Below the pieces are notes generated by a model, which was not told the DNA's origin, ran no database searches, and worked only from the letters and a program-made list of their open reading frames with translations. The position numbers and the translations under genes were made by a program. Below are positions 7,935-22,249 of a stretch of DNA of 64,000 nt, one piece after another. Origin of the DNA: Acidobacteriota bacterium (GTDB lineage: Bacteria > Acidobacteriota > Vicinamibacteria > Vicinamibacterales > 2-12-FULL-66-21). The stretch is taken from NCBI GenBank assembly GCA_031393955.1, contig JANMWI010000097.1, forward strand, positions 15,702 to 79,701. The letters run 5' to 3'. Within the stretch, counting starts at the first letter, position 1. Every line of letters starts with the position of its first letter.

Positions 7935-8465
7935 AGGTCACCTCACTCTGTTCGGCGCCTCGCAGAGGTCTGGATCGACGCCGGGTGTGGACTGTGCCCG
8001 CCCAGGGAGGTCGTGGCAAGTATCGCAGCGAATGCCGAGATCCGGAAGCGTCTTCTGACATGTTTTAGGAGTGTCGATTCGTACCGGGAACTTGGTTCCC
8101 CTGATCCGGCGCGGGAGCGGGCACGACGGAGTCGCCCGCGCAAGTGACTCTTGTCTTTCATCGAAAAACACTGCGGTCCACCGAGCACCTGAAATCCAGA
8201 CTCGACACGCGGATGAGCAAACCGTGCGACCGTGACCGTTGTCACGGTTGCCCCAGCGATTCCGGTGCAGCAGCAATCAGTCGTCATCCCGTGCACGCCG
8301 GGGAAATCCCCAGTGCCGTGCTGGGCGACCTGCGAGCCCCCTGTGAGCTAAGCTGGTCAAAGCGGCTGGGGACGACCCAACCCTGGGAGCAGGCGTCGGA
8401 TGGGATTCGAGTCCCGTCGGCGGTACGAGCCACTTGTCGCCCCGCGGTTCGCTCCGCGCACCGAC

Positions 8466-9644
8466 ATGCACAGCACTCTCTGCAGACTCACGCACGGCGT
8501 CGCCGTCTGTGTCCTGACCGTGGCGACGCTGTCCGGGGGTTCCGCCGCGGCGCCGGCCTCACCGCGCCGGTCGATTGAACCGATCCGCACCGACGGACGG
8601 TTATTCGTCGCCGGCGGCGCCACCTTCCGGCCGGTGTTCGCTTCAGCGCTGTCAATCCTGACCAAGCCTCCGGCCGAGCGGACCCGCGTGCTCGACGAAC
8701 TGCGCACGCTCGGCTTCAACGGCGTCCGCGTCTTCGCCGGCGCGCTGACGTGGGCGCACCAGACGCCGGCCACAGCCATCGCGGCATTACCCACCCTCCT
8801 GGACGAGGCCGCGGCGCGCGGCCTGTACGTCTACGTTGTCGCCATCACCGACAGCGGCACGGGCTACGACGTCGAAACGCACCTCCGCCGCGTCGCCGCC
8901 ATCGTCTCGCGCCACGACAATGCGCTGCTCGAGGTCGCCAACGAGATCGGTCACCCGACGCAGAGCGCGCGCGTCAACGACGCGGCGGCGCTGCTCGCCC
9001 TGGCTCGCCGGACGGTGCCAGACGGCACTCTGTGGTCGCTCGGCGCCTCGCTGGGCGTCGACGCGGTCGGCAGCAGCGGCCGATACCCCACCGCCGGGGG
9101 CATGTTCAACGACGCGCACCTCGACCGCGGCGGCGGGAAGTGGCGGCAGGTCGGCCGCCTGCGTGAGATCTCCGGAATCAGCGCGGCGACCGGTCAACCG
9201 GTCATAAGCGGCGAGCCGATTGGCGCCGCCGAGATCGCGGTTCGTGGCCGCCGCGAATCGGACCCGTCGTTCTTCTTCGCCATGGGCGCGCTCTGCCGCG
9301 GCTTCGAGATGGGCTGCGTCTGGCACTCGGACGCCGGTCTGCACGCCGAGCGGCCCGGCCCGGTCCAGCGCCGCGGCGCCGAGGCGTTCATCGCCGGCTG
9401 GCGCGCGCTCGACACCGACGCGCGGCTCTCGTTCGTCGATGCTGCCGCCGACCGGGCGCCGATTGCCGGCGCCACTCACGTCGCTCACGCCTATGCGTTC
9501 GTCGCCGGCGATCGCGGCTTCCTCGTGCTGTTGGGAGTGACGGGAGATCCGGCCCTGCGATTCGGCAACGGATGGACGGACCGCGGCACGCTCGCGGAGC
9601 GGCCGGGGGTTCAGGTGCGGCGGATTGGACGAAGCAACTCGTAG
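8466..9644 (+). CDS. Secreted TIM-barrel glycoside-hydrolase-like protein (GH5/cellulase-like)
   Basis: I prefer the internal ATG at 8466 (MHSTLCRLTHGVAVCVLTVATLSGGSAAA, a signal peptide). GFNGVRVF and LLEVANEIGHP (an NE acid/base-like motif) and ISGEPIG are consistent with a clan GH-A fold. The family call is tentative. Confidence 0.5.
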   Translation: MHSTLCRLTHGVAVCVLTVATLSGGSAAAPASPRRSIEPIRTDGRLFVAGGATFRPVFASALSILTKPPAERTRVLDELRTLGFNGVRVFAGALTWAHQTPATAIAALPTLLDEAAARGLYVYVVAITDSGTGYDVETHLRRVAAIVSRHDNALLEVANEIGHPTQSARVNDAAALLALARRTVPDGTLWSLGASLGVDAVGSSGRYPTAGGMFNDAHLDRGGGKWRQVGRLREISGISAATGQPVISGEPIGAAEIAVRGRRESDPSFFFAMGALCRGFEMGCVWHSDAGLHAERPGPVQRRGAEAFIAGWRALDTDARLSFVDAAADRAPIAGATHVAHAYAFVAGDRGFLVLLGVTGDPALRFGNGWTDRGTLAERPGVQVRRIGRSNS

Positions 9645-9785
9645 CTTCCCGCTCCCTGCTTCCCGCTCTCAGCCGGTAGCCAGTCACCAGTCGCCAGCCA
9701 CCCGTATCCACTACACCGGGAAACCTGGCCTGGCGACTGGGAACTGGAACTCGTGACTGAAGCGGGGAGCTGGAAGCGGGAAGCT
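9643..9785. repeat. Long imperfect palindrome filling the gap between convergent stop codons
   Basis: AGCTTCCCGCT...GCCAGTCACCAGTCGCCAG // CTGGCGACTGGGAACTGGAAC...AGCGGGAAGCT. The outer 11 nt are perfect reverse complements (9643-9653 versus 9775-9785). The inner arms are degenerate and the central loop is about 27 nt. Confidence 0.7.
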
Positions 9786-11712: not shown

Positions 11713-12537
11713 TTACCGTCCTTTCCTGAAGATCAATGCCGAGGCGACGGTGAGCGCAATCGAAGCCCCGAAACTCAGCAGGTAGTTAGTACGCAGATGG
11801 GCGCCGGGACGCTGCGGCGCCTCCGGCAGGTTGTAGACGCCGGGCGCGTCCTTGAGCAGGAAGAACGCGTTCAGCGCGCTGTACTCCGTCGTCGGCTCGG
11901 CACCGTAGAGGTACGCGTCGGTCTCGCCGCGGCCGTGGAGCTGCTCGACGCGGGCTCGCGCCGTCTCGCGGAGCTGGCTGATCGGACCGAACTGAATGGA
12001 TTCGGTCGGACACGCCTTGGCGCATGCCGGCGTCATGCCGTCCTTCTGCCGGTCGTAACAGAGCGTGCACTTGTGGGCGCGGCCGTCCTCTTTATCGCGG
12101 CCGATGACGCCGAACGGACAAGCGGCGACGCAGTAGCCGCAGCCGTTGCAGACCTCTTCCTGGACGTAGACGTTGCCGAACTCGTTGTAGATCAGCGATC
12201 CGGTCGGACAGGCTTCCTGGCAGGGCGCCTCGACGCAGTGCTTGCAGACGTCGCTCATCATCAGCCAGCGCGGCGGCGCGCCGGCGTCGCGGTCCATCTG
12301 CTCGACGAAGGCGACATGGCGCCAGGTCGTGCCCGACAGCGCCGAGGTGTTGTCGTAGCTGTGCCCGGTCCACTTGAAGCCGTCCGACGGCAGCTGATTC
12401 CACTGCTTGCAGGCGACCTCGCAGGCCTTGCAGCCGATGCACACGGTCGTGTCGGTGAAGAAGCCCATCTCCTCCTGCGCCGCCGGCGGCTCGGGGAGCT
12501 TCCACACGTCAGCGAGCTTGCCGAGCTGGTCGATCAT
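11713..12537 (-). CDS. Formate dehydrogenase iron-sulfur (4x[4Fe-4S]) subunit with C-terminal TM anchor
   Basis: From ATG 12537 (MIDQLGKLADVW). Cys clusters: CIGCKACEVACKQWN, CKHCVEAPCQEACP, CNGCGYCVAACP, CTLCYDR...PACAKACP. C-terminal helix LLSFGASIALTVASALIF. ATGA overlap with the alpha-subunit stop. Confidence 0.88.
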   Translation of the reverse strand: MIDQLGKLADVWKLPEPPAAQEEMGFFTDTTVCIGCKACEVACKQWNQLPSDGFKWTGHSYDNTSALSGTTWRHVAFVEQMDRDAGAPPRWLMMSDVCKHCVEAPCQEACPTGSLIYNEFGNVYVQEEVCNGCGYCVAACPFGVIGRDKEDGRAHKCTLCYDRQKDGMTPACAKACPTESIQFGPISQLRETARARVEQLHGRGETDAYLYGAEPTTEYSALNAFFLLKDAPGVYNLPEAPQRPGAHLRTNYLLSFGASIALTVASALIFRKGR

Positions 12538-15500
12538 CTGAACTGTCCCTCGGGCTGGTCGGACTCGGGCGTCTCGGGCGCCCGCTCGCGCGTCGGCCGC
12601 GGCGCCACCGCGACCGGCTGCGACGGCGCTGACGCCGGCAGCCGCCCGGCCCGGACGTTGCAGGTGAACGCTTTCGCCTCGTGCATGCTGACGTTCGGAT
12701 CGGCGACGATCAGCGTCAGGTCGTTGGCGATCGAGCCGACGGTTTCGCCGGCGAATCCCCAGTGGAACGGGATGCCGATCTGGTGCAGCGTCCGGCCGGC
12801 GACGGTCAGCGGCCGCATCCGGCGCGTCACCATCGCGCGCGCTTCGATTGCGCCGCGCCGGTTGACGACCACCAGCCAGCCGCCATGGACGATGCCGCGA
12901 TCGGCGGCGAGCTCGGGGCTGATCTCGACGAACATTTCCGGCTGCAGTTCGTTCAGCCACGAGTTGAAACGGCTCATCGGCCCGCTCAGGTAATGCTCGG
13001 TGAGCCGGTAGGTGGTCGCGACGATCGGGTACGCCGGGTCGAGCGGCGGGGCGCACTCGTTCAGCGCGGTGTCGTAGCGTTCGACCACCGGGTTGGCCTG
13101 CTGCCGGTAGAGCGGATTGGCAACCGGCGATTCGACCGGCTCGTAGTGCGTCGGCAGCGGGCCGTCCTTGGTGCCGGCCGGTGCGTACAGCCAGCCCTTG
13201 CCATCCGGCTTCATGATAAACGGGGAGTTCCCGGCAATCGACGCCATGCCGTGCGCACCCTTGGCGGGGCGGTAGGTTGGCGCCTTGTCCGGCTCGAAGT
13301 CAGGTTCGTCGAAGCCGGTCCAAGTGCTCCGCGCCTCGTCCCACCAGACATATTTCTTACGATCCGACCATGGCCGGCCGTCGGGATCGGCAGAGGCCCG
13401 GTTGTAGAGCATCCGGCGATTGTGCGGCCAGGCGAAGCCCCAGTTCGGGTCGACATAGTTCCCGGGTGTGCGCCGGCGATCGGCGGCGCGGTTGTGATCG
13501 ACTGAAGGAAACACGCCGCTGTAGATCCAGCAGCCGCACGCGGTCGAGCCGTCGGCTTCGAGATCGGAGAAGCCACTGACCTGCGTGCGATCGGCAACGC
13601 GATAGCCGTTGATCTCCATCAGGACCTTGCGGGTATCGGGCTCGTCCGTGATCCGACTGGTCTGGCCGTCGGCGAGCACGAACGGTCCGTCCGGGTCGTA
13701 GTTCCACGTCAGATTCAGCAGTCCCTGGTCGCGCGTCTCGGTCGAGCCGGCGTAGAGCGCCTTCAGGCGCTTGCCGAGGTGATACACGAACCACAGGTCC
13801 GAGCGGCAGTCGCCCTGCGGATCGACGGCGCGGTCGTGCCACTGCAGCAGCCGCTGGGTATTCGTGAAGCAGCCTTCCTTCTCGGGCGACGAGGCTGCCG
13901 GCATGAAGAACACCTCGGTGCCGATGGTTGCTGGATCGGGGTGCTCGGGGCCGTCCTTCCAGAACGACGCGCTCTCGATCTCGAACCAGTCGCGCACCAC
14001 CAGCCAGTCGAGCCGCCGCAGCGCCGCGCGGTTGAGCGCGCCATTGGGCGCGCCGGCAGCAGGGTTCTGTCCGAACAGGAAGAAGCCCTTGACCTTGCCG
14101 TCGGCCATCCGCATCGCCGTCGCCAGCTGCGAGTAGTTGTCGTCGATGCGCGGAATCCAGCCGAAGCCGAAGTCGTTGTCTTTCGTGGCCGCGTCGCCGT
14201 ACCACGCCTTGAGCAGGCTGATCATGAACTTCGGGAAGTTCGACCAGTAGCCGTGCGGGACGTGTTCCTGATCGAGATAGCTGTGCAGCGAGGTGTGGTT
14301 GCGCAGGCTGGACGGCTGCGGGAGGTAGCCGGGGAGCAGGTCGTAGAGCGTCGGGATGTCGGTCGAACCCTGGATGCTGGCGTGGCCGCGCATCGCCATG
14401 ATGCCGCCGCCGGGGCGGCCCATGTTGCCGAGCAGCAGCTGCAGGATGCCGGCGGCCCGGATCGTCTGCACCCCGGTGGTGTGCTGCGTCCAGCCGACCG
14501 CATAGACGATGGCGGACGTGCGTTCGCGGCCCGAGTTCTCGCACAGCGATTCGGCGACCTGGAGGAAATCCGCAGCGCTGCAGCCGGTCACCGAGGCGAC
14601 CATCTCCGGCGTGTATCGGGCGTAGTGGCGGCGCAGGATGTTCAGGACGCAGCGCGGATGCTGCAGTGTCGGGTCGGTCGGCGGCGGGACGTTTTCGATG
14701 AAGCCCAACCGCTCGCTGAACGATTCCGCCTTTACCTCCTTCGGGGTGTGGGTTTTCGAGGTCTCGGGCTCGCCGGCATAGTTCCACGCCGCCAGGCCCG
14801 GCTCGTAGCTCTTGGTGTCCGGATGGAAGCCGTTGAAGACGCCGTCGTTGTCCTCGGCGTCTACGAACGTGTCCGCGACGATCGTCGCGGCGTTGGTGTA
14901 GGCGAGGACGTAGTCGCGGAACCAGCGGTCGTGGGTCAGCACGTAGTTGATGAGGCCGCCGAGGAAGGCGATATCCGTCCCGGTCCGGACGGCGACGTAC
15001 TGTGTGGACATCGCCGACGTGCGCGAGAAATGCGGATCGACGTGGATGAGCTTGGCGCCGCGCTCCTTGGCGAGCATCGGGAAGCGGAAGCCCACGGGAT
15101 GCGCCTCCGCCATGTTCGACCCCATGATCAGGATGCAGTCGCTGTGCTGCAGATCCTGCTGGAAGCCGGTCGCCGCGCCCCGCCCGAACGAGGTGCCCAG
15201 ACCGGGCACCGACGCGCTGTGTCATATGCGGGCCTGGTTTTCGATCGAGACGACGCCGAGGCCACCGTTGAGGAGCTTCTTGATGAGGTAATTCTCCTCA
15301 TTGTCGAGCGTCGCACCGCCGAGCGCCGCGATGTTCGTGACGTGGTTGAGCACCGTCTCGCCGCGCCGCTCGACGAAGCCCGCGTCGCGCGTCTCCTTGA
15401 CCCGCTCGGCGATCCGCGCCATCGCCCAGTCCAGGGAGCGGTCCTCCCAGTGATCGGAGTAGGGCGGCCGGTATCTGACGGTCGTCACGCGGTGAGGATT

Positions 15501-15791
15501 CACCGACAGCTGGAAGGTGTTCGCCCCCTTCGGGCAGAGCGTGCCGGCATTGATCGGGCTGTCGGGGTTGCCCTCGATGTCGATGATCTTTCCGGCCTTG
15601 GTGTAGATCAGCTGGCCGCAGCCGACCGCGCAATAGGGGCAGACGCTGGGCGTCACGTGCGCCCCGCGCAGCCTCGACCCTTTGCCGGCGGTCGCCGGGG
15701 TGAAGGGCTGCCGATCGACCTCCCGCGCCGCCGCCGAGGGCTCGATCTCCGTGGACGTTCGCTGCCGGCTGAATCGATGTTGATCGCTCAT
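12534..15791 (-). CDS. Formate dehydrogenase catalytic (molybdopterin) subunit, selenocysteine-containing
   Basis: Track ORFs 15222..15791 and 12534..15209 are in the same frame, separated by UGA at 15224..15222. The context ...VSIENQARI-U-HSASVPGLGTSFGRGAATG... parallels E. coli FdnG ...DNQARV-U-HGPTV...FGRGAM. N-terminal Fe-S motif CPYCAVGCG. GGGAGG lies upstream of ATG 15791. Confidence 0.9.
15192..15210 (-). promoter_or_regulatory. Bacterial SECIS hairpin
   Basis: On the mRNA, 11 nt after the UGA, the sequence is GGUGCCC-GGUCU-GGGCACC. This is a perfect 7-bp stem with an apical GGUCU loop like the E. coli fdhF SECIS loop. Confidence 0.8.
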
Positions 15792-15861: not shown

Positions 15862-16683
15862 TCAGGCCGGTTTACCTTTCGTCACGATAGTCGCGAGCAA
15901 GTACCCGTGCCGGCGAACCGACGGGACGTGGCGATCGAGCCAGACGAATGGCCGGACCGCCGCCCCGGTGACGACCGACAGCGGCCGGCACCACGCGTGG
16001 CACGCCAGGTCGAGCATCCGGAGCCAGCCGGGAATGAACAGAATCGCGGTCTCGGAGACGACCGTGAGGCCCGATCGCTGCAGCATCGCCCGCAGCGCCG
16101 GCCGGCTATACGACTTCTCGAAGCCGTAGGCATACAGCCCGAGCGCCTGGAGCGCCGCGGCGAGCAGCGGCCTGAGGAACGGGTCGCGGCGGTTCGGCAC
16201 GCCGACGATCGCCCGCCCGCCCGGCTTCAGGACGCGCGCGATTTCCCGCACCGCCTGTTCCGTTTCGTCGAAGTGTTCGATCGTCCCCATCGAATAGACG
16301 ATGTCGAAGGCGTCGTCGAGAAAGGGAATGTCGCGCACGTCGGCGACGGCGCCGTGCAGCGGGGTGGTGCGGCTGAACGCGCCGCGCGCCTGACGGACCG
16401 TCGGTGGTGAGATGTCGATCCCGTAGACCGTGGCGCCGCGCTCGCCCGCCCACGCGAGAATACGGGTGTTGCGCGCTTCATCCCAGAGGTCGGTTTTGAA
16501 GACGCGCAATCCGGAAAGGGCCGGGCAGTGGTCCGTGAAGAGGCGGCGCTCGTTCTCGGCGTAGTAGCGGGTCGAGGCCGCGCCGCCGAGGTCCGGGAAC
16601 GTCGCCCCGACGCGGGCCCAGAACCGCCGGTAGGCGGATCCTTCGGCGTCGGGCGGCGCGGCGGACGTCGCGGCCGGATTCAT
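15862..16683 (-). CDS. Class I SAM-dependent methyltransferase
   Basis: From ATG 16683 (MNPAATS...), which overlaps the upstream stop as ATGA. ATVYGIDISPPTVRQA...DDAFDIVYSMGTIEHFDE...VLKPGGRAIVGVPN is a Methyltransf_11/25-like core. Confidence 0.75.
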   Translation of the reverse strand: MNPAATSAAPPDAEGSAYRRFWARVGATFPDLGGAASTRYYAENERRLFTDHCPALSGLRVFKTDLWDEARNTRILAWAGERGATVYGIDISPPTVRQARGAFSRTTPLHGAVADVRDIPFLDDAFDIVYSMGTIEHFDETEQAVREIARVLKPGGRAIVGVPNRRDPFLRPLLAAALQALGLYAYGFEKSYSRPALRAMLQRSGLTVVSETAILFIPGWLRMLDLACHAWCRPLSVVTGAAVRPFVWLDRHVPSVRRHGYLLATIVTKGKPA

Positions 16684-18644
16684 GGATGCGCGCCCTCGAC
16701 GCTCCAGTGCCATTCGCCGATCCGGAACGAGAGCGCCCGCGGATCGCCGTTGTGCAGCAGGGCGCCGGCCGATTCCGCCGGAGCCCCCGGGGCGAAGGCC
16801 AGCTCGTGGTCGCCTGGCAGCAGGAGGAACGGCCCCACCTGTTCGATGTGGCGGGCCTCGGCAACTGCGAGCGTTTGCAGATCGCGGCCGTCGAGCGTCA
16901 GCCGCAACCGACGAGTGCCGCGGAGCGTCGCCATCTCGATGCTGACGGCCGCGGCCACTGTCCGCCGGCTGGTGTTGCGGACGCGCCACGACGCTGTCTC
17001 CGTCATCCATCGCCACGTCCACGCCTGGTCGTATTCGCGCGGATAGAAACCGTTCATCTGCAGCGTATAAACCACCGGACGCGCCGCGATGACGGGAAAG
17101 ATGTCGGCCGTCGCAAATCGTACCGCAGGGCTGAAGCCGGCGATGGCGGACTGTCGGGCCAGCCAGCGCCCTTCCGGCGAGGTCCGCCGCATCAGCAGGT
17201 GCGTGTAACCGGCCGCCGCCAGTTTGCCGGCCAGCTCAGGCTCTGCGCAATCCTCGATTTGCGCCGCGACGAGCGACACGCGGCCGCCGCTCAGCCAGGG
17301 AACCGAGGCGGACTCCGGAGTAATCGGCGAGCAGTCAGCGGCCTGTACGGAACCCGGCTGCCGCACGACCCAGCGATGCGCCTCGGTCGGAAGAACGTCG
17401 CGCCACAGGTTTGATGGCCAGACCGCGTACTCCGCCGCCGCCAGCGCCACGAGCATCAGGCACGCCACCTGCCCGCGCCGTCCGCCTGACCGCCAGAGCA
17501 GCTCGGCGCCCATGCCCGCCAGCAGCGCCGCCATCAGCTGCACGACAATGCCAAACCGGGCGTAGGAACGGAACATTGGCACGAGCGCGAAGAGCGCGGC
17601 GGAGGGGCGGACCATCCTGATCGGCCCGATGCTGCGCTCCGGCGAGAGGGAGCAGAGGAGCGCCACAAGCGCGACCGCTGCGAGGACCGGCGCGGCGAGC
17701 AGGATTGGATCGCGGCGGCGACGCGCCGCTCCGGCCAGGGACACGAGGCCGAGCGCCACGATGCTCCAGCCGAGGCTGACCTGCTGCTCGAGCAGTCCGT
17801 CCTGCACGCCGGCCGACCGCCATAAATCCTGGACCCGTGACCCAATCCACGGGTGCGCGGCCGGCGGCATGAGGTAGCTCCACCACTTGGCGCTGTACAG
17901 GAACAGCTCCTCGCGCGCGATGGCGTAGCCGCCCGGCGGAAGCGCGCCGACGTGCGTCGCGTGCCACGCCCAGGCGCCGCCCAGCCCGGCGACCGCGACG
18001 AGGCAGGCCACAGTGATCAGCAACCGCCCGACGGGGCGCGGGCGGGTGGCTCGCGTACACCACCAGTAGCCGCCAAGCGCCCACGGCGTGATGACCGCCG
18101 CCATCAGCCCGCCGTAGAAATTCGACAGCGCGACCGCCGCTGCCGCGCCGGCGAGCAGCGCGAGCGCCCGCGCTGTCGGATTGTCCGCCGCTCGGAACAG
18201 GGCGAGCAGATAGAGCGGCAGCCACTGTGTCTGCGCGATGTGCGGATGATAGGCGGCCTGCGCGAGATGAAACGGGCAGAAGGCGAACGCCAGGGCGGCC
18301 AGCGCCGAGCCGGCCCGTGGCACGCCCAGATGACGTCCGAGCAGGAAAGCGGCGCCGGCCGCAAGCGGGAACGTCAGGAGGACGATCGCGTTGTAGGCGG
18401 CCACCGGACCGGCGACCCGTGCGATGAGCGCACCGGGCACGTCCGTGACCGGCTGGAAATATGGACCCGGGGTCAGCGGCCGTGCGAACTGCGCGATGAC
18501 GGTAAAGGGATCGTGGTGCCGGCCCACCAGCTCCCCGCCGAAGATGCGCTCCGCCGGCGCGCGCAGCACCGGTACGGCCAGGACGACGGTAATCGCGAGC
18601 GCGATCGCGACGATGCCGGCGGTCTCAGCGGCGCGCGCGGGCAT
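16680..18644 (-). CDS. Large polytopic membrane protein with extracytoplasmic C-terminal domain (GT-C/YfhO-like, function unknown)
   Basis: 654-aa ORF with many hydrophobic helices in the first ~420 aa (IVAIALAITVVLAVPVL..., AYNAIVLLTFPLAAGAAFLLG..., WLPLYLLALF...). The C-terminal ~200 aa are soluble-looking. The start overlaps the upstream gene by 20 nt. Confidence 0.7.
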   Translation of the reverse strand: MPARAAETAGIVAIALAITVVLAVPVLRAPAERIFGGELVGRHHDPFTVIAQFARPLTPGPYFQPVTDVPGALIARVAGPVAAYNAIVLLTFPLAAGAAFLLGRHLGVPRAGSALAALAFAFCPFHLAQAAYHPHIAQTQWLPLYLLALFRAADNPTARALALLAGAAAAVALSNFYGGLMAAVITPWALGGYWWCTRATRPRPVGRLLITVACLVAVAGLGGAWAWHATHVGALPPGGYAIAREELFLYSAKWWSYLMPPAAHPWIGSRVQDLWRSAGVQDGLLEQQVSLGWSIVALGLVSLAGAARRRRDPILLAAPVLAAVALVALLCSLSPERSIGPIRMVRPSAALFALVPMFRSYARFGIVVQLMAALLAGMGAELLWRSGGRRGQVACLMLVALAAAEYAVWPSNLWRDVLPTEAHRWVVRQPGSVQAADCSPITPESASVPWLSGGRVSLVAAQIEDCAEPELAGKLAAAGYTHLLMRRTSPEGRWLARQSAIAGFSPAVRFATADIFPVIAARPVVYTLQMNGFYPREYDQAWTWRWMTETASWRVRNTSRRTVAAAVSIEMATLRGTRRLRLTLDGRDLQTLAVAEARHIEQVGPFLLLPGDHELAFAPGAPAESAGALLHNGDPRALSFRIGEWHWSVEGAHP

Positions 18645-20052
18645 ACGTCATCATCGCGGCGACGAGCAGGATCGGCGCCGTCACGGCCCACGCCCGCACG
18701 TCCCGGACCTGCGGCGCGAAGACGACAGCGCGCGCCGCGATTCCCAGTCCCTGGAATACCGCGATCTGAGTGAGCGCGAGCACGGCGGTGCCCGCCGCAA
18801 CCACTGCCCAGCAGTCGATCGTGAAGAGCACGACGCACAGCGCGAAGTACAACCCGATCTGGAAACCCGGCAGGAGGGCGAGGGCCCCCTGCGGGTCCGG
18901 GAGCGCCGGACTGGCGCCAGCAGCGGCGGCAATCGCCTCGCCGTACGGAAATCCGAACAGGTAGACGAACGCTCCGCCGAGCGCCATGCCGGCGACGGCG
19001 CGGCGAACGGCGTTCGCCGATCGGCCGTGACGCCACAGAGCGGCAGCCGTCACGACGACCGCTGCCAGCAGCAGCTGGTAGAACGCGTGAATCAGAAAGA
19101 GCGGGGAGGCGACGATGGTCGCGGGCAGCGCGACGACGAGCAGCCGCAGGGCGCCGAGTGCGATGAAGAGCGGCAGCGCCGCGGCGAGGGCGGCGGCTCG
19201 CAGCTTCCAGGTTCCCGCGTAGCCGAGCGCCGTCGCTACGTAGACAGGAATGAGCGGCGTCGTCAGGCACTCCTGGGTGACGACGAATGCCCCCCGGCTC
19301 GTCGACAGCACGTTGCCGGTTGCGGTCGCGGCGACGCCGACGAGCGCCAGCGACCCTGCCGCCAGCCGCGCCGCCAGCCCCGCCGCGGCGAGGACGCCGG
19401 CGCTGTCGCCGTACAGCGGAACGGCGATGCTGAAGAGCACGACGCACAGCGCCGTCAGCAGCACGAAGCGGGTCGTGATGCCACGGGGCTCGAACCGGCG
19501 GGCGCGCCGCGATGGTCGCGCCGCCGCGGGCGGGGCGAAGTCGCTGTTCGCGGCGTGCATCCATCCGAAGACATAGGCGGAAACCACGAGCGCGAGCAGA
19601 GCCGGCCAGGCGTAAAGGTGAAGGATGTCGAACCAATACGGGGACCCGGCGGCGCGCCCGAGCGTGCCAATCCGAATCGTGTTCAGCGCGAGGATGAGGA
19701 GGATGCCGCCGGCGGCTCCCTGGAGCCGTCTGCGCCAGGCGGCCGGGTAGGCCAGAATCGCCGCGGCGCAGAGGGCGAGGACGTCGGCGCCGCTGCACGC
19801 CAGGGTGACCTCGACCGGCAGCGCCGCCGCGCCGAACAGGCCGCGCGCGAGGCGTCCCTGTGCCTCTGTCAGCGGGAGGATGACGTGGCTCTCGACCCAG
19901 CCGAGGCGCAGCAGCCCGAACAGGCACAGGCTCCAGGCGACGCCCCGGAGCACGAAGTCACGCGCTGATCTGAGCGCGGCTCCGTCCGTCGGCACGAGGG
20001 ATCTCCTGTACCGCAACCTTGCGCGCCCCGAGCAGCCGGCCGAGCTCCGCAA
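18625..20052 (-). CDS. Exosortase-family protein with two tandem exosortase-like halves
   Basis: The first half has VTLACSGADVL (Cys86), LNTIRIGTLG (Arg127) and ILHLYAWP (His145), the exosortase/archaeosortase signature. The second half has FVVTQECLTTPL (Cys262), GALRLLVVAL (Arg303) and LIHAFYQ (His322). The start is uncertain: the longest ORF overlaps the upstream gene by 95 nt, and GTG 19995 or GTG 19953 (4 nt after the upstream stop) are alternatives. Confidence 0.7.
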   Translation of the reverse strand: MRSSAGCSGRARLRYRRSLVPTDGAALRSARDFVLRGVAWSLCLFGLLRLGWVESHVILPLTEAQGRLARGLFGAAALPVEVTLACSGADVLALCAAAILAYPAAWRRRLQGAAGGILLILALNTIRIGTLGRAAGSPYWFDILHLYAWPALLALVVSAYVFGWMHAANSDFAPPAAARPSRRARRFEPRGITTRFVLLTALCVVLFSIAVPLYGDSAGVLAAAGLAARLAAGSLALVGVAATATGNVLSTSRGAFVVTQECLTTPLIPVYVATALGYAGTWKLRAAALAAALPLFIALGALRLLVVALPATIVASPLFLIHAFYQLLLAAVVVTAAALWRHGRSANAVRRAVAGMALGGAFVYLFGFPYGEAIAAAAGASPALPDPQGALALLPGFQIGLYFALCVVLFTIDCWAVVAAGTAVLALTQIAVFQGLGIAARAVVFAPQVRDVRAWAVTAPILLVAAMMTYARARR

Positions 20053-20437
20053 TCGCGGCCAGGCTCTTCAGCCTGGTCGAGCAGGAGAAAATGTCGATGT
20101 TGACGGTGTTGGTCTCCGGCCACGTATGAAGCACGGCATGTGACTCGCGCAGCACGAGCACGCAGGTCAGGCCGTGACCCGGGTAGGCATGCGTGACCTC
20201 GTGGACGATGGTGGCGCCGGCCGCGCGCAGCGCCGCCGCGAACCCGGCCGCCAGCGCCGCGCCGTCGAATCCTGCCAGCGCCTCACAGTTCCCGAAATCG
20301 GCCGAGTACAGCACCGGCTGCTCTTGCTGCTGAGCGATCACGTCACGCGTACTATACGCCCTGCCGGGAGCATGCCCGTGTGCAATAGAGAACAGCGGCC
20401 GGCCATTCTTCTCGATTAAAGTGCCCCGGACCGTCAT
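19958..20437 (-). CDS. S-adenosylmethionine decarboxylase-like pyruvoyl proenzyme (SpeH/SpeD class 1 family)
   Basis: YSADFGNCE...GLTCVLVLRESHAVLHTWPETNTVNIDIFSCS matches the AdoMetDC core (ESH self-cleavage site, HTWPE, FxC). There is a ~35-aa N-terminal extension, and GTG 20341 is an alternative start. Confidence 0.7.
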   Translation of the reverse strand: MTVRGTLIEKNGRPLFSIAHGHAPGRAYSTRDVIAQQQEQPVLYSADFGNCEALAGFDGAALAAGFAAALRAAGATIVHEVTHAYPGHGLTCVLVLRESHAVLHTWPETNTVNIDIFSCSTRLKSLAAIAELGRLLGARKVAVQEIPRADGRSRAQISA

Positions 20438-20450
20438 CTAGGAGAGAAGA

Positions 20451-21545
20451 GTGCTCATGCCCAGGAGAAGTCTCAGCAGCGTTGCAGCGGCTGTATGCGT
20501 CGCGGTCTGTCTCGCGCCGGCTGCCGCCGTGGCCCAGACGGCTCCGTCCCTCGGCACCGCCCAGAGCTTCGCGGTGCTTGGCGGCTCGACCGTGACCAAC
20601 ACGGGGGCCAGCCTGGTGACCGGAGACCTCGGTGTCAGTCCGGGGTCGGCGGTCACCGGCTTTCCGCCCGGCCTGGTGGCCGGCGGCGCGATCCATGCCG
20701 CCGATGCCGTCGCGCTGCAGGCGCAGAACGACGTCACGACGGCGTACAACGCCCTCGTCTCGCAGGCCTGCACCGCAGATCTGACCGGGCAGGATCTCGG
20801 CGGAAAAACCCTGACGCCCGGTGTCTACTGCTTCACATCGTCCGCGCAGCTGACCGGCACCCTCACGCTCAACGCGCTGGGCAACGCCAATGCCGTGTTC
20901 ATCTTCAAAATCGGCAGCACGCTGACGACGGCGAGCAATGCCTCGGTGGTCGTCACCAACGGCGGCCTCAACTGCAATACCTACTGGCAGGTGGGCTCGT
21001 CGGCGACGATCGGCACCGGGACGACATTCGCCGGCAACATTCTGGCGCTGACCAGCATCAGCCTGACGACCGGCGCGCGGGTGTTCGGCCGGACGCTGGC
21101 CCGCAACGGCGCCGTGACGCTCGACACCAACACCGTCGACCGCTCCGCCTGTGTGACGCTGGCGGGTCCCGGTGCCTGCCCGGCGATCACGATCGCGCCC
21201 GCGACGCTGCCGGCCGCGACGGTCGGACTGGCCTTCTCGCAGACCTTCACCGCGTCCGGCGGCACCGGGCCCTACACGTTCGCGGTTGTGGCCGGCGCAC
21301 CGCCGACCGGCCTGACGCTCAGCCCGGCCGGCGTGCTGGCGGGAACGCCGGCGGCTGCGGGCACGCCGACGTTCTCCATCCGTGCGCTGGATGCGGCGGG
21401 ATGCTCCCAGACGTCCGCCTTCACCGCCACGGTCGCCTCGCCGGTGCCGACGCTCCCGGAGTGGGCGATGATGACGCTGTCGCTGCTGGTCGTGGCGGCG
21501 GGTGTGCTCGCCTTGCGGGGCCGCCGCCGCGGGACGGCTCGTTAG
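20451..21545 (+). CDS. Secreted DUF3494/ice-binding-like protein with Ig-like module and IPTL/PEP-CTERM-type sorting tail
   Basis: Signal peptide ...AAAVCVAVCLAPAAAVAQT. LGTAQSFAVLGGSTVTNTGASLVTGDLGVSPGSAVTGF and repeated T/N/G beta-helix turns fit DUF3494. ITIAPATLPAATVGLAFSQTFTASGGTGPYTFAV is an Ig-like module. GGAGA lies upstream, and the start is GTG 20451 or ATG 20457. Confidence 0.8.
   Translation: MLMPRRSLSSVAAAVCVAVCLAPAAAVAQTAPSLGTAQSFAVLGGSTVTNTGASLVTGDLGVSPGSAVTGFPPGLVAGGAIHAADAVALQAQNDVTTAYNALVSQACTADLTGQDLGGKTLTPGVYCFTSSAQLTGTLTLNALGNANAVFIFKIGSTLTTASNASVVVTNGGLNCNTYWQVGSSATIGTGTTFAGNILALTSISLTTGARVFGRTLARNGAVTLDTNTVDRSACVTLAGPGACPAITIAPATLPAATVGLAFSQTFTASGGTGPYTFAVVAGAPPTGLTLSPAGVLAGTPAAAGTPTFSIRALDAAGCSQTSAFTATVASPVPTLPEWAMMTLSLLVVAAGVLALRGRRRGTAR
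21444..21542 (+). other. C-terminal sorting signal (motif + TM helix + Arg cluster)
   Basis: VPTLPEWAMMTLSLLVVAAGVLALRGRRRGTAR. This compares with the IPTLxxWG-type variant of PEP-CTERM. Confidence 0.7.
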
Positions 21546-21595: not shown

Positions 21596-22249
21596 TCAGT
21601 CGTGGACAACGACCGTCAGCAGTGACGGATTGATCGTCAGCCCGTCCGCGTCGTACTCGATGAAGCCCATCTTCCTGAACTTGTTCAGGAAGAAGTTGAC
21701 CCGCGAGCGGGTGGTGCCGATCATCTCCGCCAGGGTCTCCTGCGAGACGGCCGGAACGACGCGCTGCGGCTTGTTGCCGCGGCCGTAGTGCCCGAGCAGC
21801 AGCAGCGTCCGCGCCAGGCGCTTCTCGCTCGAGTTGAACAGCTGATCGACCAGATCCGCTTCCAGCCGCGCGTTCCTGACCAGCATGTAGGTGCGGAAGT
21901 AATCCGAGAATTCGAGATCGCTGCGCAGCAGGCGGACCATCTGCCGCTTGCGAATGCTCAGCAGCGTCGTCGCCATCGTCGCGCAGGCCGTGGCCAACCG
22001 CACCGATTGGCCCGCGAGCGCGCCTTCGCCGACGAAGTCCCGCGGACCCAGCATCGCGATGACCGCTTCCTTGCCGGCATGCGAAATCACCGACAGCTGT
22101 ACACCCCCCTCGCGCAGGTACATGACGCTGTCGCACGCATCCCCCTGCACGAAGACCGTGGCGCCGCGATCGTACTCGCGCCGCTGCCCGAGCCCCGCGC
22201 CCTCGAGGAACGCCTGGACGTCGAACGCCGCAGTCTTTTTCGCTGGCAT
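21596..22249 (-). CDS. Crp/Fnr family transcriptional regulator
   Basis: cNMP-binding-like region (VFVQGDACDSVMYLREGGVQLSV...GPRDFVGEGAL) plus a C-terminal HTH (SQETLAEMIGTTRSRVNFFLNKFRKMGFI). There is no FNR-type N-terminal Cys cluster. Confidence 0.85.
   Translation of the reverse strand: MPAKKTAAFDVQAFLEGAGLGQRREYDRGATVFVQGDACDSVMYLREGGVQLSVISHAGKEAVIAMLGPRDFVGEGALAGQSVRLATACATMATTLLSIRKRQMVRLLRSDLEFSDYFRTYMLVRNARLEADLVDQLFNSSEKRLARTLLLLGHYGRGNKPQRVVPAVSQETLAEMIGTTRSRVNFFLNKFRKMGFIEYDADGLTINPSLLTVVVHD

What the first reader, a model, noticed from the sequence alone, without database searches (positions are those of the whole stretch)
15862..21545. Self-contained exosortase cassette: one IPTL-type substrate head-to-head with an AdoMetDC-like / double-exosortase / polytopic-membrane / methyltransferase operon
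Seen in sequence: 20451..21545 encodes a signal-peptide protein. It has a DUF3494/ice-binding-like region, one Ig-like module, and the tail VPTLPEWAMMTLSLLVVAAGVLALRGRRRG (motif, TM helix, Arg cluster). Only 13 nt away on the other strand, four genes run in series with overlapping or near-abutting boundaries (19958/19953-20052; 18625/18644; ATGA at 16680-16683). They encode an AdoMetDC-like proenzyme, an exosortase-like protein (ACSG Cys, NTIRIG Arg, conserved His), a 654-aa polytopic protein with an external C-domain, and a class I methyltransferase. Established knowledge, recalled rather than searched: exosortases process PEP-CTERM-type tails, and TIGRFAMs/NCBIfam name an IPTL-CTERM signal and an exosortase H annotated as IPTLxxWG-CTERM-specific. 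Inference: this is a dedicated one-substrate sorting and modification module. I do not know this accessory enzyme set (decarboxylase, methyltransferase, GT-C-like protein) from any described exosortase system.
Basis: partly seen in the sequence, partly recalled or inferred. Interest (0 to 1): 0.75.

Follow-up and report, generated by a model that had tools for sequence, protein, structure and literature searches.

The report
Tandem exosortase cassette with SAM-decarboxylase-like partners
A soil acidobacterium carries a compact, widely conserved gene set in which a doubled membrane "sorting" protease sits next to its single surface-protein target. Three unexpected helper enzymes accompany it, and in other genomes these are often fused to the protease, which offers a rare clue to what exosortases attach their proteins to.

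Summary
20451..21545(+) encodes a signal-peptide DUF3494/ice-binding-like protein with a He_PIG Ig domain and a tail that passes both IPTL-CTERM models. Divergent from it run four genes:
- an AdoMetDC-like pyruvoyl proenzyme;
- a 456-aa exosortase (true start GTG 19995);
- a 654-aa GT-C-fold membrane protein;
- a class I methyltransferase.

The exosortase is a tandem duplication, and both halves keep an invariant Cys/Arg/His triad. It is XrtH-like but scores below the XrtH cutoff.

In 68 related loci, nearly all Vicinamibacterales/Acidobacteriota MAGs, partner genes sit in the same order:
- decarboxylase 60/63;
- DUF3494 substrate 53/58;
- GT-C 57/61;
- methyltransferase 42/45.

Elsewhere the parts are fused: exosortase–methyltransferase (about 20 cluster representatives), exosortase–methyltransferase–AdoMetDC, AdoMetDC–exosortase and methyltransferase–AdoMetDC. 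A canonical single-domain XrtH locus, whose substrate belongs to the same protein family, lacks all three accessories.

Best reading: a dedicated sorting and modification module. I infer, but have not shown, that the cytoplasmic decarboxylase/methyltransferase pair and the periplasmic GT-C build or decorate the acceptor or anchor.

No NCBIfam model or paper I could find describes it. I rate it a new variant of a known kind.

The parts
20451..21545 (+). Substrate: a secreted DUF3494/ice-binding-like beta-solenoid protein of 364 aa. It has a signal peptide (~aa 1-28, ...AAAVA|QT). Ice_binding covers aa 42-229 (nt 20574-21137) and He_PIG Ig-like covers aa 246-329 (nt 21186-21437).
   Evidence: The public gene call of 364 aa is identical. 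There are more than 8000 homologues, some named by NCBI 'IPTL-CTERM sorting domain-containing protein'.
21441..21530 (+). IPTL-type C-terminal sorting signal, VPTLPEW | AMMTLSLLVVAAGVLAL | RGRRRG: motif, TM helix, basic cluster.
   Evidence: PF18203 24.6>20.8 and TIGR04174 26.3>20.5. The same tail type sits on the neighbouring gene in about 59 related loci.
20342..20450 (.). Probable divergent intergenic/promoter region between the substrate and the operon. Its extent depends on the true decarboxylase start.
   Evidence: The homologue N-termini align downstream of 20341. No consensus sigma-70 site was found.
19958..20437 (-). AdoMetDC-like (class 1b SpeD-like) pyruvoyl proenzyme. This is the maximal ORF of 159 aa; the likely start is GTG 20341 or 20314. 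It keeps the ESH self-cleavage serine, HTWPE and DIFSC.
   Evidence: PF02675 80.6 bits. TIGR03330 72.0, just under its cutoff of 75.65. Alignment to T. maritima AdoMetDC 1tlu. Motifs invariant in 61 orthologues.
18625..19995 (-). Tandem (double) exosortase of 456 aa, about 12 TM helices. The N domain covers aa 1-155 (nt 19531-19995) with Cys67 (ACSG), Arg108 (NTIRIG) and His126. The C domain covers aa 172-456 (nt 18628-19482) with Cys243 (QEC), Arg284 and His303.
   Evidence: 939+ homologues of the same length. Public gene call of 456 aa.
16680..18644 (-). GT-C-fold polytopic membrane protein of 654 aa (DUF6311 by orthologues). It has an invariant GRHHDPF in the first loop after TM1 and a C-terminal CBM6/35-like beta-sandwich (aa ~510-654).
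   Evidence: AF2 model pLDDT 75. Foldseek PDB: AftD 2e-7, STT3, AftA, ArnT, EmbA/B, plus CBM6/35 for the C-domain. Invariant columns. Weak YfhO/PTPS_related hits.
15862..16683 (-). Class I SAM methyltransferase of 273 aa, belonging to a distinct clade in which motif I (GxGxG) is replaced by the invariant LKTDLWDEA.NTRI. Its start overlaps the upstream stop (ATGA).
   Evidence: Methyltransf_11 7e-22. Motif conservation. Frequent fusion to the tandem exosortase and/or AdoMetDC.

Best explanation
This is a dedicated exosortase sorting-and-modification cassette, typical of Vicinamibacterales (Acidobacteriota).

Proposed steps:
1. The DUF3494/He_PIG protein is exported by Sec and held in the inner membrane by its C-terminal helix. 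This is inferred from the signal peptide and the tail.
2. The adjacent XrtH-like tandem exosortase has two Cys/Arg/His sites, predicted at the outer face of the membrane. It recognises the VPTLxxW motif and cleaves it through a thioester intermediate. This is inferred by homology to exosortases and archaeosortases.
3. The acyl-enzyme is resolved onto an acceptor instead of water.

Three co-operonic enzymes belong to the same machine. The AdoMetDC-like pyruvoyl decarboxylase and the KTDLWDE-clade methyltransferase work on the cytoplasmic side; in other genomes they are fused to the cytoplasmic N- or C-terminus of the exosortase. The GT-C enzyme, with its CBM-like domain, works on the periplasmic side.

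My most likely mechanism is speculative. The decarboxylase makes a primary amine (decarboxylated SAM, or agmatine/putrescine if it is a neofunctionalised SpeD). That amine, possibly after methylation or transfer to a lipid or glycan carrier, supplies or tunes the nucleophile or anchor used by the exosortase. The GT-C glycosylates the protein or its anchor.

Shown here: domain identities, catalytic-residue conservation, gene order, co-occurrence and fusions. Inferred: substrate-enzyme pairing, topology and all chemistry.
For: Both catalytic triads are invariant across 60 homologues of 53-74% identity.

Conserved order across 68 loci:
- decarboxylase 60/63;
- DUF3494 53/58, of which 51 are divergent;
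- GT-C 57/61;
- methyltransferase 42/45;
- all four together 32/42.

VPTL-type tails lie almost exclusively on the gene(s) abutting the operon in 1.24 Mb of flanks.

A distant subgroup (38-42% identity) keeps exosortase, methyltransferase (10/11), usually the decarboxylase, and a big GT-C-like protein. It has a different substrate and a different tail, (T/V)PALPLxG. The accessories therefore track the exosortase, not DUF3494.

Fusions:
- exosortase-MTase: P0021/L003 and about 20 representatives of 50%-identity clusters;
- exosortase-MTase-AdoMetDC: L075, L080, P0249, P0255;
- AdoMetDC-exosortase: L084;
- MTase-AdoMetDC: P0247, P0250.

Contrast cases: a substrate of the same protein family with a classic IPTLDWLG tail sits next to a true 167-aa XrtH with none of the accessories (L089). 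A homologue with another tail has no cassette (L087).

Precedent: ArtA-dependent lipid anchoring needs PssA and the decarboxylase PssD, which are syntenic with artA in Methanosarcina. There the ethanolamine amine is proposed as the nucleophile (PMC7157517). An IPTL-CTERM protein is an experimentally localised S-layer protein in Methylomirabilis (PMC8671808).
Against: There is no experimental datum for any member.
- The decarboxylase substrate is unknown. SpeD homologues can be SAM, Arg or Orn decarboxylases (PMC10407285).
- The amine would be made in the cytoplasm while the exosortase sites are predicted to be periplasmic, so a carrier or flippase step is needed and none is identified.
- The methyltransferase clade motif also occurs in members unlinked to AdoMetDC, so it gives no hint of dcSAM use.
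- Methylating an amine would reduce, not create, nucleophilicity.
- Some loci lack the MTase or GT-C (L005, L008, L068, L084).
- The whole-genome number of tail-bearing proteins is unknown, so 'dedicated' is supported only locally.
- The AF2 inter-domain geometry of the exosortase is uncertain (pTM 0.50).
Confidence: 0.7

Rival explanations
1. It is simply an ordinary, already catalogued XrtH/IPTL-CTERM system, and the neighbouring enzymes are incidental metabolic genes (polyamine synthesis plus a generic methyltransferase).
For: - The tail passes the IPTL-CTERM models, and XrtH is the best subfamily hit of the N-half.
- One family member, the L084 fusion, reaches 87.1 bits against the cutoff of 86.
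- The AdoMetDC-like protein scores 72 against the 75.65 SpeD equivalog cutoff and keeps all catalytic motifs.
Against: - The window enzyme scores 63.4, below 86. It is a 456-aa tandem protein, not a protein of about 160 aa.
- A true XrtH locus for the same substrate family has no decarboxylase, MTase or GT-C. It has an XrtH-associated membrane protein instead, which is unrelated to the C-half.
- Conservation in about 90% of loci and repeated fusions rule out incidental adjacency.
- No speE was seen in any locus.
Confidence: 0.08
2. The cassette is mainly a glycoconjugate or lipid biosynthesis and export module. The MTase, decarboxylase and GT-C make a modified surface glycan or lipid. The tandem 'exosortase' acts on that product or as a scaffold, and the DUF3494 protein is an accessory such as a glycan-binding or anchoring partner rather than the central substrate.
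For: - The membrane protein has the GT-C fold with a CBM6/35-like domain.
- More distant relatives of the MTase are fused to an LpxL-like acyltransferase and to NAD-dependent sugar epimerase/dehydratases.
- In L003, a Wzy_C/O-antigen-ligase-like gene replaces the GT-C.
- Exosortases are classically embedded in EPS loci (PMC1569441, listed; the EPS link itself is quoted from Haft's preprint).
Against: - Both exosortase halves retain the protease-type Cys/Arg/His triad.
- A tail-bearing protein is adjacent in about 90% of loci, and the tail type changes together with the exosortase subgroup. That pattern is the signature of an enzyme-substrate pair.
- No glycan polymerase, flippase or exporter is conserved in the cassette.
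Confidence: 0.15
3. The C-terminal exosortase-like half is a degenerate, non-catalytic duplicate that serves only for substrate docking or as a scaffold. Functionally the enzyme would then be a single XrtH-like protease with extra helices.
For: - The C-half is only weakly similar to exosortase models (E 1e-5 to 1e-4).
- It is weakly similar to a true XrtH (hhalign probability 8%).
- It carries four additional helices.
Against: - Cys243, Arg284 and His303 are invariant in 60 sequences and align with the N-half triad.
- The tandem architecture is retained down to 33-38% identity.
Confidence: 0.25

Closest known systems
Exosortase H (XrtH, TIGR04177) / IPTL-CTERM (TIGR04174, PF18203) / XrtH-associated membrane protein (NF041730)
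   Same: - The cognate tail is IPTL-type.
- The N-half is most similar to XrtH.
- A member of the same DUF3494/He_PIG protein family is served by a true XrtH in another lineage (L089).
- The gene arrangement is the adjacent, 'dedicated' type.
   Different: - The window enzyme is below the XrtH cutoff (63.4 vs 86).
- It is a tandem duplication with two triads and about 12 TM helices.
- No XrtH-associated membrane protein is present, and the C-half is not that protein.
- The cassette adds an AdoMetDC-like enzyme, a methyltransferase and a GT-C, often fused.
- The tail usually reads VPTL(P/S)(E/Q)(W/A/F), without the WG of IPTLxxWG.
Archaeosortase A with PssA/PssD (Haloferax volcanii; syntenic in Methanosarcina), PMC7157517
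   Same: A Cys/Arg/His sortase-like membrane enzyme is genetically linked to a decarboxylase. That decarboxylase is proposed to generate the amine acceptor for C-terminal anchoring.
   Different: - The decarboxylase there is a phosphatidylserine-decarboxylase-type lipid enzyme, whereas here it is a soluble AdoMetDC-fold enzyme.
- There is no methyltransferase or GT-C partner and there are no fusions.
- The signal is PGF-CTERM and the system is archaeal.
PEP-CTERM/XrtA systems in EPS loci (PMC1569441)
   Same: The exosortase superfamily is paired with a tripartite C-terminal signal and associated with glycan-handling membrane enzymes.
   Different: - XrtA is one-to-many, with many substrates, and sits in large EPS clusters.
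- It has a single catalytic domain.
- No decarboxylase or methyltransferase partner is described.
SpeD/SpeE (AdoMetDC + aminopropyltransferase) and neofunctionalised SpeD homologues (PMC10407285)
   Same: It has the class 1b AdoMetDC fold with the self-processing ESH serine, and is paired with a class-I-MTase-fold enzyme.
   Different: - The partner is a Methyltransf_11-type enzyme, not a spermidine-synthase family member.
- The context is an exosortase operon or fusion, not polyamine genes.
- The substrate is untested.

Membership tests
Exosortase/archaeosortase superfamily (TIGR04178 signature) | Signature HMM above the curated cutoff | tested here: met
   44.0 bits against a cutoff of 23.
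Exosortase/archaeosortase superfamily (TIGR04178 signature) | Conserved Cys, Arg, His in a polytopic membrane protein | tested here: met
   C67/R108/H126 and C243/R284/H303 are invariant in 60 sequences. The AF2 model is all-helical with about 12 TM helices.
Exosortase/archaeosortase superfamily (TIGR04178 signature) | Co-occurrence with a tripartite C-terminal sorting signal | tested here: met
   An adjacent tail-bearing gene is present in 53/58 loci, and the tail type co-varies with the enzyme subgroup.
Exosortase H (TIGR04177) | HMM score at or above 86 bits | tested here: not met
   The window protein scores 63.4 bits. For comparison, the true XrtH in L089 scores 115.6 and the L084 fusion 87.1.
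Exosortase H (TIGR04177) | Single-domain protein of about 160 aa, accompanied by an XrtH-associated membrane protein (NF041730) | tested here: not met
   The protein is a 456-aa tandem. None of the five cassette proteins hits NF041730, and the C-half is unrelated to the L089 associated protein.
Exosortase H (TIGR04177) | Cognate IPTL-CTERM substrates | tested here: met
   The tail passes TIGR04174 and PF18203.
IPTL-CTERM sorting domain (TIGR04174 / PF18203) | HMMs above cutoff, at the extreme C-terminus, with motif, TM helix and basic cluster, on a protein with a signal peptide | tested here: met
   26.3>20.5 and 24.6>20.8 over residues 331-360 of 364. The signal-peptide-like N-terminus is read directly from the sequence.
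Class 1b AdoMetDC / SpeD (PF02675, TIGR03330) | Domain HMM and equivalog HMM | tested here: inconclusive
   PF02675 is met (80.6 against 25). The TIGR03330 equivalog scores 72.0, below its cutoff of 75.65.
Class 1b AdoMetDC / SpeD (PF02675, TIGR03330) | Self-processing Ser (ES), catalytic His and Cys | tested here: met
   ESH, HTWPE and DIFSC align to T. maritima 1tlu and are invariant in 61 orthologues.
Class 1b AdoMetDC / SpeD (PF02675, TIGR03330) | Decarboxylates S-adenosylmethionine rather than Arg or Orn | not testable with these tools
   SpeD homologues include Arg and Orn decarboxylases (PMC10407285). An enzyme assay is needed.
GT-C glycosyltransferases | GT-C membrane fold | tested here: met
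   Foldseek probability is 1.0 to AftD (2e-7), STT3, AftA, ArnT and EmbA/B. TM-scores are only about 0.35 and model pLDDT is 75.
GT-C glycosyltransferases | Conserved acidic residue in the first extracytoplasmic loop | tested here: met
   GRHHDPF (D45) directly after TM1 is invariant in 34 sequences. Its placement in the loop is inferred, because that segment of the model has low pLDDT.
GT-C glycosyltransferases | Use of a polyprenyl-phosphate-linked sugar donor | not testable with these tools
   No donor-synthesis gene is present in the cassette.
Class I SAM methyltransferase (Methyltransf_11) | Domain HMM above cutoff | tested here: met
   78.3 bits against a cutoff of 21.2.
Class I SAM methyltransferase (Methyltransf_11) | Glycine-rich motif I (GxGxG) | tested here: not met
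   It is replaced by the invariant LKTDLWDEA, and the Pfam match starts at profile position 10.
Ice-binding protein (NF045625 equivalog) | Equivalog HMM at or above 400 bits | tested here: not met
   89.6 bits. Only the DUF3494 fold family PF11999 is met, so no ice-binding function is claimed.

The most novel reading that the evidence does not exclude
The tandem exosortase, methyltransferase and AdoMetDC-like decarboxylase form one physical machine, as shown by the double and triple fusions. On this reading the machine performs a previously unknown C-terminal protein modification. A cytoplasmically made, SAM- or amino-acid-derived amine, possibly carried on a lipid or glycan and methylated, is the nucleophile that resolves the exosortase thioester. 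That would give the first chemical identity for an exosortase acceptor. The two active sites would divide the labour, for example cleavage versus transfer, or two tail flavours.
Probability: 0.2. Interest if true: 0.85.

Novelty: new variant of a known kind. Interest (0 to 1): 0.66.

Why it matters
Exosortases are very widespread in environmental bacteria. Yet their reaction is still unresolved, even whether they are transpeptidases at all (Haft preprint). The bacterial acceptor, so far as I know, is also unidentified.

This cassette is small and self-contained, and has one obvious substrate. In many genomes it literally fuses the exosortase to a pyruvoyl decarboxylase and a methyltransferase. 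That narrows the search for the acceptor or modification chemistry to a few testable candidates.

The cassette could be reconstituted heterologously with five genes. It also defines an uncatalogued tandem exosortase subfamily, an uncatalogued methyltransferase clade, and a role for DUF6311 GT-C proteins in an abundant but mostly uncultured soil lineage (Vicinamibacterales).

Tried and rejected
1. **dcSAM use by the MTase.** I asked whether the odd motif I (KTDLWDEA) marks a dcSAM-using aminopropyltransferase. I rejected this as evidence, because the motif is shared by clade members with no AdoMetDC link, whether stand-alone or fused to an epimerase or an LpxL-like enzyme.
2. **C-half as the XrtH-associated protein.** I asked whether the tandem enzyme is a fusion of XrtH with the XrtH-associated membrane protein. 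hhalign probability was about 1%, so I rejected it.
3. **Solved structures for the exosortase.** A PDB sequence search and a fold search gave no meaningful match, only noise from MFS transporters.
4. **Named families for the MTase or the distant exosortases.** NCBIfam has nothing above cutoff for either.
5. **Literature.** Nothing links exosortase with AdoMetDC or with DUF3494. 'XrtH/XrtM' searches returned only noise plus one epsSMASH mention, which I did not read. Haft 2012 (PMC3256604) is not held.
6. **Whole-genome count of IPTL tails.** This was not possible.
7. **Promoter and terminator scan of the locus.** It found nothing above shuffled expectation.
8. **Self-BLAST of the two exosortase halves.** On its own it was not significant (E 0.66). 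Profile methods were needed.

Full report
**Observation.** The five ORFs are present as described.

The + strand gene 20451..21545 encodes a 364-aa protein. Its N-terminus looks like a signal peptide (MPRRSLSSVAAAVCVAVCLAPAAAVA|QT). It carries a Pfam Ice_binding/DUF3494 domain (1.3e-64) and one He_PIG Ig-like domain (1.1e-11). Its C-terminal tail, VPTLPEWAMMTLSLLVVAAGVLALRGRRRG, passes both curated IPTL-CTERM models: PF18203 at 24.6 against 20.8, and TIGR04174 at 26.3 against 20.5. It does not reach the ice-binding equivalog (89.6 against 400), so only the fold family is claimed.

On the other strand lie four genes:
- An AdoMet_dc domain protein: PF02675 at 80.6 bits; TIGR03330 at 72.0, just under its cutoff of 75.65.
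- An exosortase: TIGR04178 signature at 44 against 23; best subfamily XrtH at 63.4, below its cutoff of 86.
- A 654-aa polytopic protein.
- A Methyltransf_11 protein (7e-22).

The exosortase stop at 18625 overlaps the next ATG at 18644. The last two genes share ATGA at 16680-16683. Only one IPTL-like tail occurs in the 64-kb window.

**Two corrections.**
1. Homologues of the exosortase begin MPTD(T/A)A..., which matches the window's VPTDGAAL at GTG 19995. The public gene call on the same 114,294-bp contig is also 456 aa. The gene is therefore 18625..19995 and overlaps the decarboxylase stop (19958) by 38 nt.
2. The decarboxylase ORF from ATG 20437 (159 aa) is probably too long. Orthologues are 120-127 aa, and their N-termini align to window residues ~40 onward. 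The start is likely GTG 20341 or 20314, and the divergent intergenic region about 110-137 nt rather than 13 nt.

**The exosortase is a tandem duplication.**
- The C-terminal 285 residues alone match the ArtB (1e-5) and XrtH (1e-4) profiles over nearly their full length.
- A profile-profile comparison of the N-half and C-half alignments gives 85% probability (E 6e-6). It aligns VTLACSG with VTQEC, AYPxxWRxR with AYxxTWRRR, NTxRIG with GIARLL, and the SP motif.
- In an alignment of 60 homologues (53-74% identity), C67, R108, H126 and C243, R284, H303 are all invariant.
- The AF2 model (pLDDT 78.6, pTM 0.50) is all-helical with about 12 membrane helices.
- By the positive-inside rule, the Arg-rich inter-domain linker and both termini are cytoplasmic and the two triads lie at the outer face. 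This topology is my inference. It is consistent with the fusions described below.
- No solved structure resembles the protein by sequence or fold.
- The C-half is not the NCBIfam 'XrtH-associated membrane protein' (hhalign probability ~1%).

**The other parts.**

*Decarboxylase.* It aligns to T. maritima AdoMetDC (1tlu) and keeps the self-cleavage Glu-Ser, His and Cys motifs: ESH, HTWPE and DIFSC. These are invariant in 61 orthologues. It is therefore probably an active pyruvoyl enzyme. Its substrate is open, because SpeD homologues include Arg and Orn decarboxylases (PMC10407285).

*Membrane protein.* It has no significant Pfam hit itself (weak YfhO/PTPS_related hits). Its orthologues carry precomputed DUF6311. 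Its AF2 model (pLDDT 75) matches GT-C enzymes: AftD 2e-7, STT3 of OST, AftA, ArnT and EmbA/B, all at probability 1.0, though TM-scores are only about 0.35. The C-terminal beta-sandwich matches CBM6/CBM35 modules. An invariant GRHHDPF follows TM1, where GT-C enzymes carry their catalytic acidic residue.

*Methyltransferase.* It belongs to a distinct clade in which the glycine-rich motif I is replaced by LK(T/L)DLW(D/N)EA.NT. Its best PDB relatives are generic class I enzymes, including a phosphatidylethanolamine N-methyltransferase. No NCBIfam model names this clade.

**Conservation.** The tandem exosortase has more than 939 full-length homologues in the protein collection, several labelled Acidobacteria or Vicinamibacterales. 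A scan of GTDB species representatives found 140 relatives. The 80 fetched loci are almost all Acidobacteriota/Vicinamibacterales MAGs.

Among 68 loci whose exosortase is at least 45% identical:
- the decarboxylase is immediately upstream in 60/63;
- a DUF3494 gene lies within 3.5 kb upstream in 53/58, divergent in 51;
- the GT-C gene follows in 57/61;
- the methyltransferase follows in 42/45;
- all four are present in 32/42 loci that have both flanks.

The DUF3494 neighbours end in VPTL-type tails of two flavours: VPTLSEWAMI... and VPTLPQxFVLxLALGL..GY.RLRRR. A tail scan over 1.24 Mb of fetched DNA found 64 hits. About 59 are the gene or genes abutting the operon.

Four further contexts, reached from substrate homologues, agree:
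- three VPTL-tail proteins have the exosortase nearby (L084, L085, L086);
- one homologue with a different tail has none (L087).

**A distant subgroup shows what the core is.** This subgroup has 38-42% exosortase identity. In L073 the order is:
1. an unrelated 250-aa protein with the tail TPALPLVGVGILGLLLAGRGAWLRRRR;
2. AdoMet_dc;
3. the methyltransferase;
4. the tandem exosortase;
5. an 814-aa PMT_2-like membrane protein.

Other members carry (T/V)PALPLxG tails. The methyltransferase is adjacent in 10/11 of these loci. The accessory enzymes therefore follow the exosortase, not DUF3494, and the tail motif changes with the exosortase subgroup.

**Fusions.**
- P0021/L003 is exosortase-methyltransferase.
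- L075 and L080 encode single ORFs of exosortase-methyltransferase-AdoMetDC, next to a GT-C-like gene.
- L084 encodes AdoMetDC-exosortase.

I also ran an exhaustive search with the methyltransferase against 50%-identity cluster representatives. It gave 112 representatives at or below 1e-30. Of the 49 with a full-length match:
- 20 are tandem-exosortase-methyltransferase fusions;
- 2 are triple fusions (P0249, P0255);
- 3 are methyltransferase-AdoMetDC fusions;
- the remainder are stand-alone.

Both soluble domains are attached only to the predicted cytoplasmic termini. More distant clade members are fused to an LpxL-like acyltransferase, to NAD-dependent epimerase/dehydratases, or to a PLP-dependent Orn/Arg/DAP decarboxylase. 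This hints at lipid or sugar substrates and at a recurrent decarboxylase-methyltransferase pairing.

**Comparison with the known system.** In L089, a DUF3494/He_PIG homologue with the classic IPTLDWLG tail is followed by a 167-aa single-domain XrtH (115.6 against 86). Next comes a weak XrtH-associated membrane protein. There is no decarboxylase, methyltransferase or GT-C.

The window enzyme is thus XrtH-like in its N-half (hhalign 95.5% to that XrtH). It fails the XrtH cutoff, has a different architecture, and has different partners. None of the tandem exosortases, their methyltransferases or their GT-C partners has a dedicated NCBIfam model.

The literature I could search contains nothing on exosortase with AdoMetDC or DUF3494. 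Haft's concept of 'dedicated' one-to-one sorting systems fits the arrangement.

**Mechanism.**

*Shown:* domain identities, intact catalytic motifs, operon structure, co-occurrence and fusions.

*Inferred by homology:* the substrate is exported by Sec and held by its tail helix, and the exosortase cleaves at the VPTL motif via a Cys thioester.

*Speculative:* the decarboxylase supplies a primary amine (dcSAM, agmatine or putrescine). That amine, perhaps on a lipid or glycan carrier and modified by the methyltransferase, provides or tunes the acceptor that resolves the thioester. The GT-C glycosylates the protein or its anchor on the outer face.

The closest precedent is ArtA. Its lipid anchoring of PGF-CTERM proteins requires PssA and the decarboxylase PssD, which are syntenic with artA in Methanosarcina, and the ethanolamine amine is proposed as the nucleophile (PMC7157517). 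An IPTL-CTERM protein is an experimentally localised S-layer protein in Methylomirabilis (PMC8671808).

*Weak points:* the amine is made on the wrong side of the membrane, and no carrier is identified. Methylation would blunt a nucleophile. A few loci lack the MTase or GT-C.

**Verdict.** It is a new variant of a known kind: an XrtH-related but uncatalogued tandem exosortase subfamily with a conserved, frequently fused accessory set. The chemistry is unknown but now sharply testable.

Noticed in passing
window 12534..15791 (-): A formate dehydrogenase alpha subunit is split by an in-frame TGA at about 15219-15221, in the context ENQARI-TGA-HSASVPG. This is the typical selenocysteine position (ARx-U-H), so it is a probable selenoprotein, not a pseudogene. 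An Fe-S subunit ORF follows at 11713..13056.
   Followed up: partly
window 21596..22249 (-); L001 5747-6400; L084 7543-8247: A Crp/Fnr-type regulator (cNMP_binding + HTH_Crp_2) lies next to the substrate gene in the window and in two related loci. It may regulate the cassette, or this may be plain synteny among close relatives.
   Followed up: no
proteins P0439, P0462, P0467, P0482, P0488, P0492 and others: Many DUF3494/He_PIG homologues end in a third, different conserved tail...ALIALSANPVDILGALTSGLVVAFILHLLIGGARRR. I did not recognise it, and it may be another C-terminal sorting signal with its own processing enzyme.
   Followed up: no
L073 7929-8681; L079 3-1694; L081 3-3284; L082 5998-7446: The distant tandem-exosortase subgroup is paired with proteins ending in (T/V)PALPLxG + TM + RRR. 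This tail differs from IPTL and sits on unrelated proteins, one with CARDB/matrixin-like neighbours.
   Followed up: partly
P0267, P0291, P0311, P0376: The LK(T/L)DLW(D/N)E methyltransferase clade has no GxGxG motif I. Members also occur fused to an LpxL-like lipid A acyltransferase, to NAD-dependent epimerase/dehydratases, and to a PLP-dependent Orn/Arg/DAP decarboxylase. This is an unnamed methyltransferase family, probably acting on lipid- or sugar-linked amines.
   Followed up: partly
L086 5464-9666: One locus has the divergent decarboxylase|substrate pair twice: a second AdoMet_dc at 7617-8009 (-), head-to-head with a second DUF3494 gene at 8200-9666 (+). The pair looks to have been duplicated as a unit.
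   Followed up: no
L002/L005 (L002 3068-5848): In one MAG a classical sortase (PF04203), together with transglycosylase and transpeptidase genes, lies about 1-2 kb from the cassette's DUF3494 gene. That gene appears degraded or frameshifted there.
   Followed up: no
L001/L004 around 7537-8035: In the closest long-read MAG (74% exosortase identity) the decarboxylase is not called as a gene. Only 58 residues match in one frame. This is probably a Nanopore indel rather than real loss.
   Followed up: no
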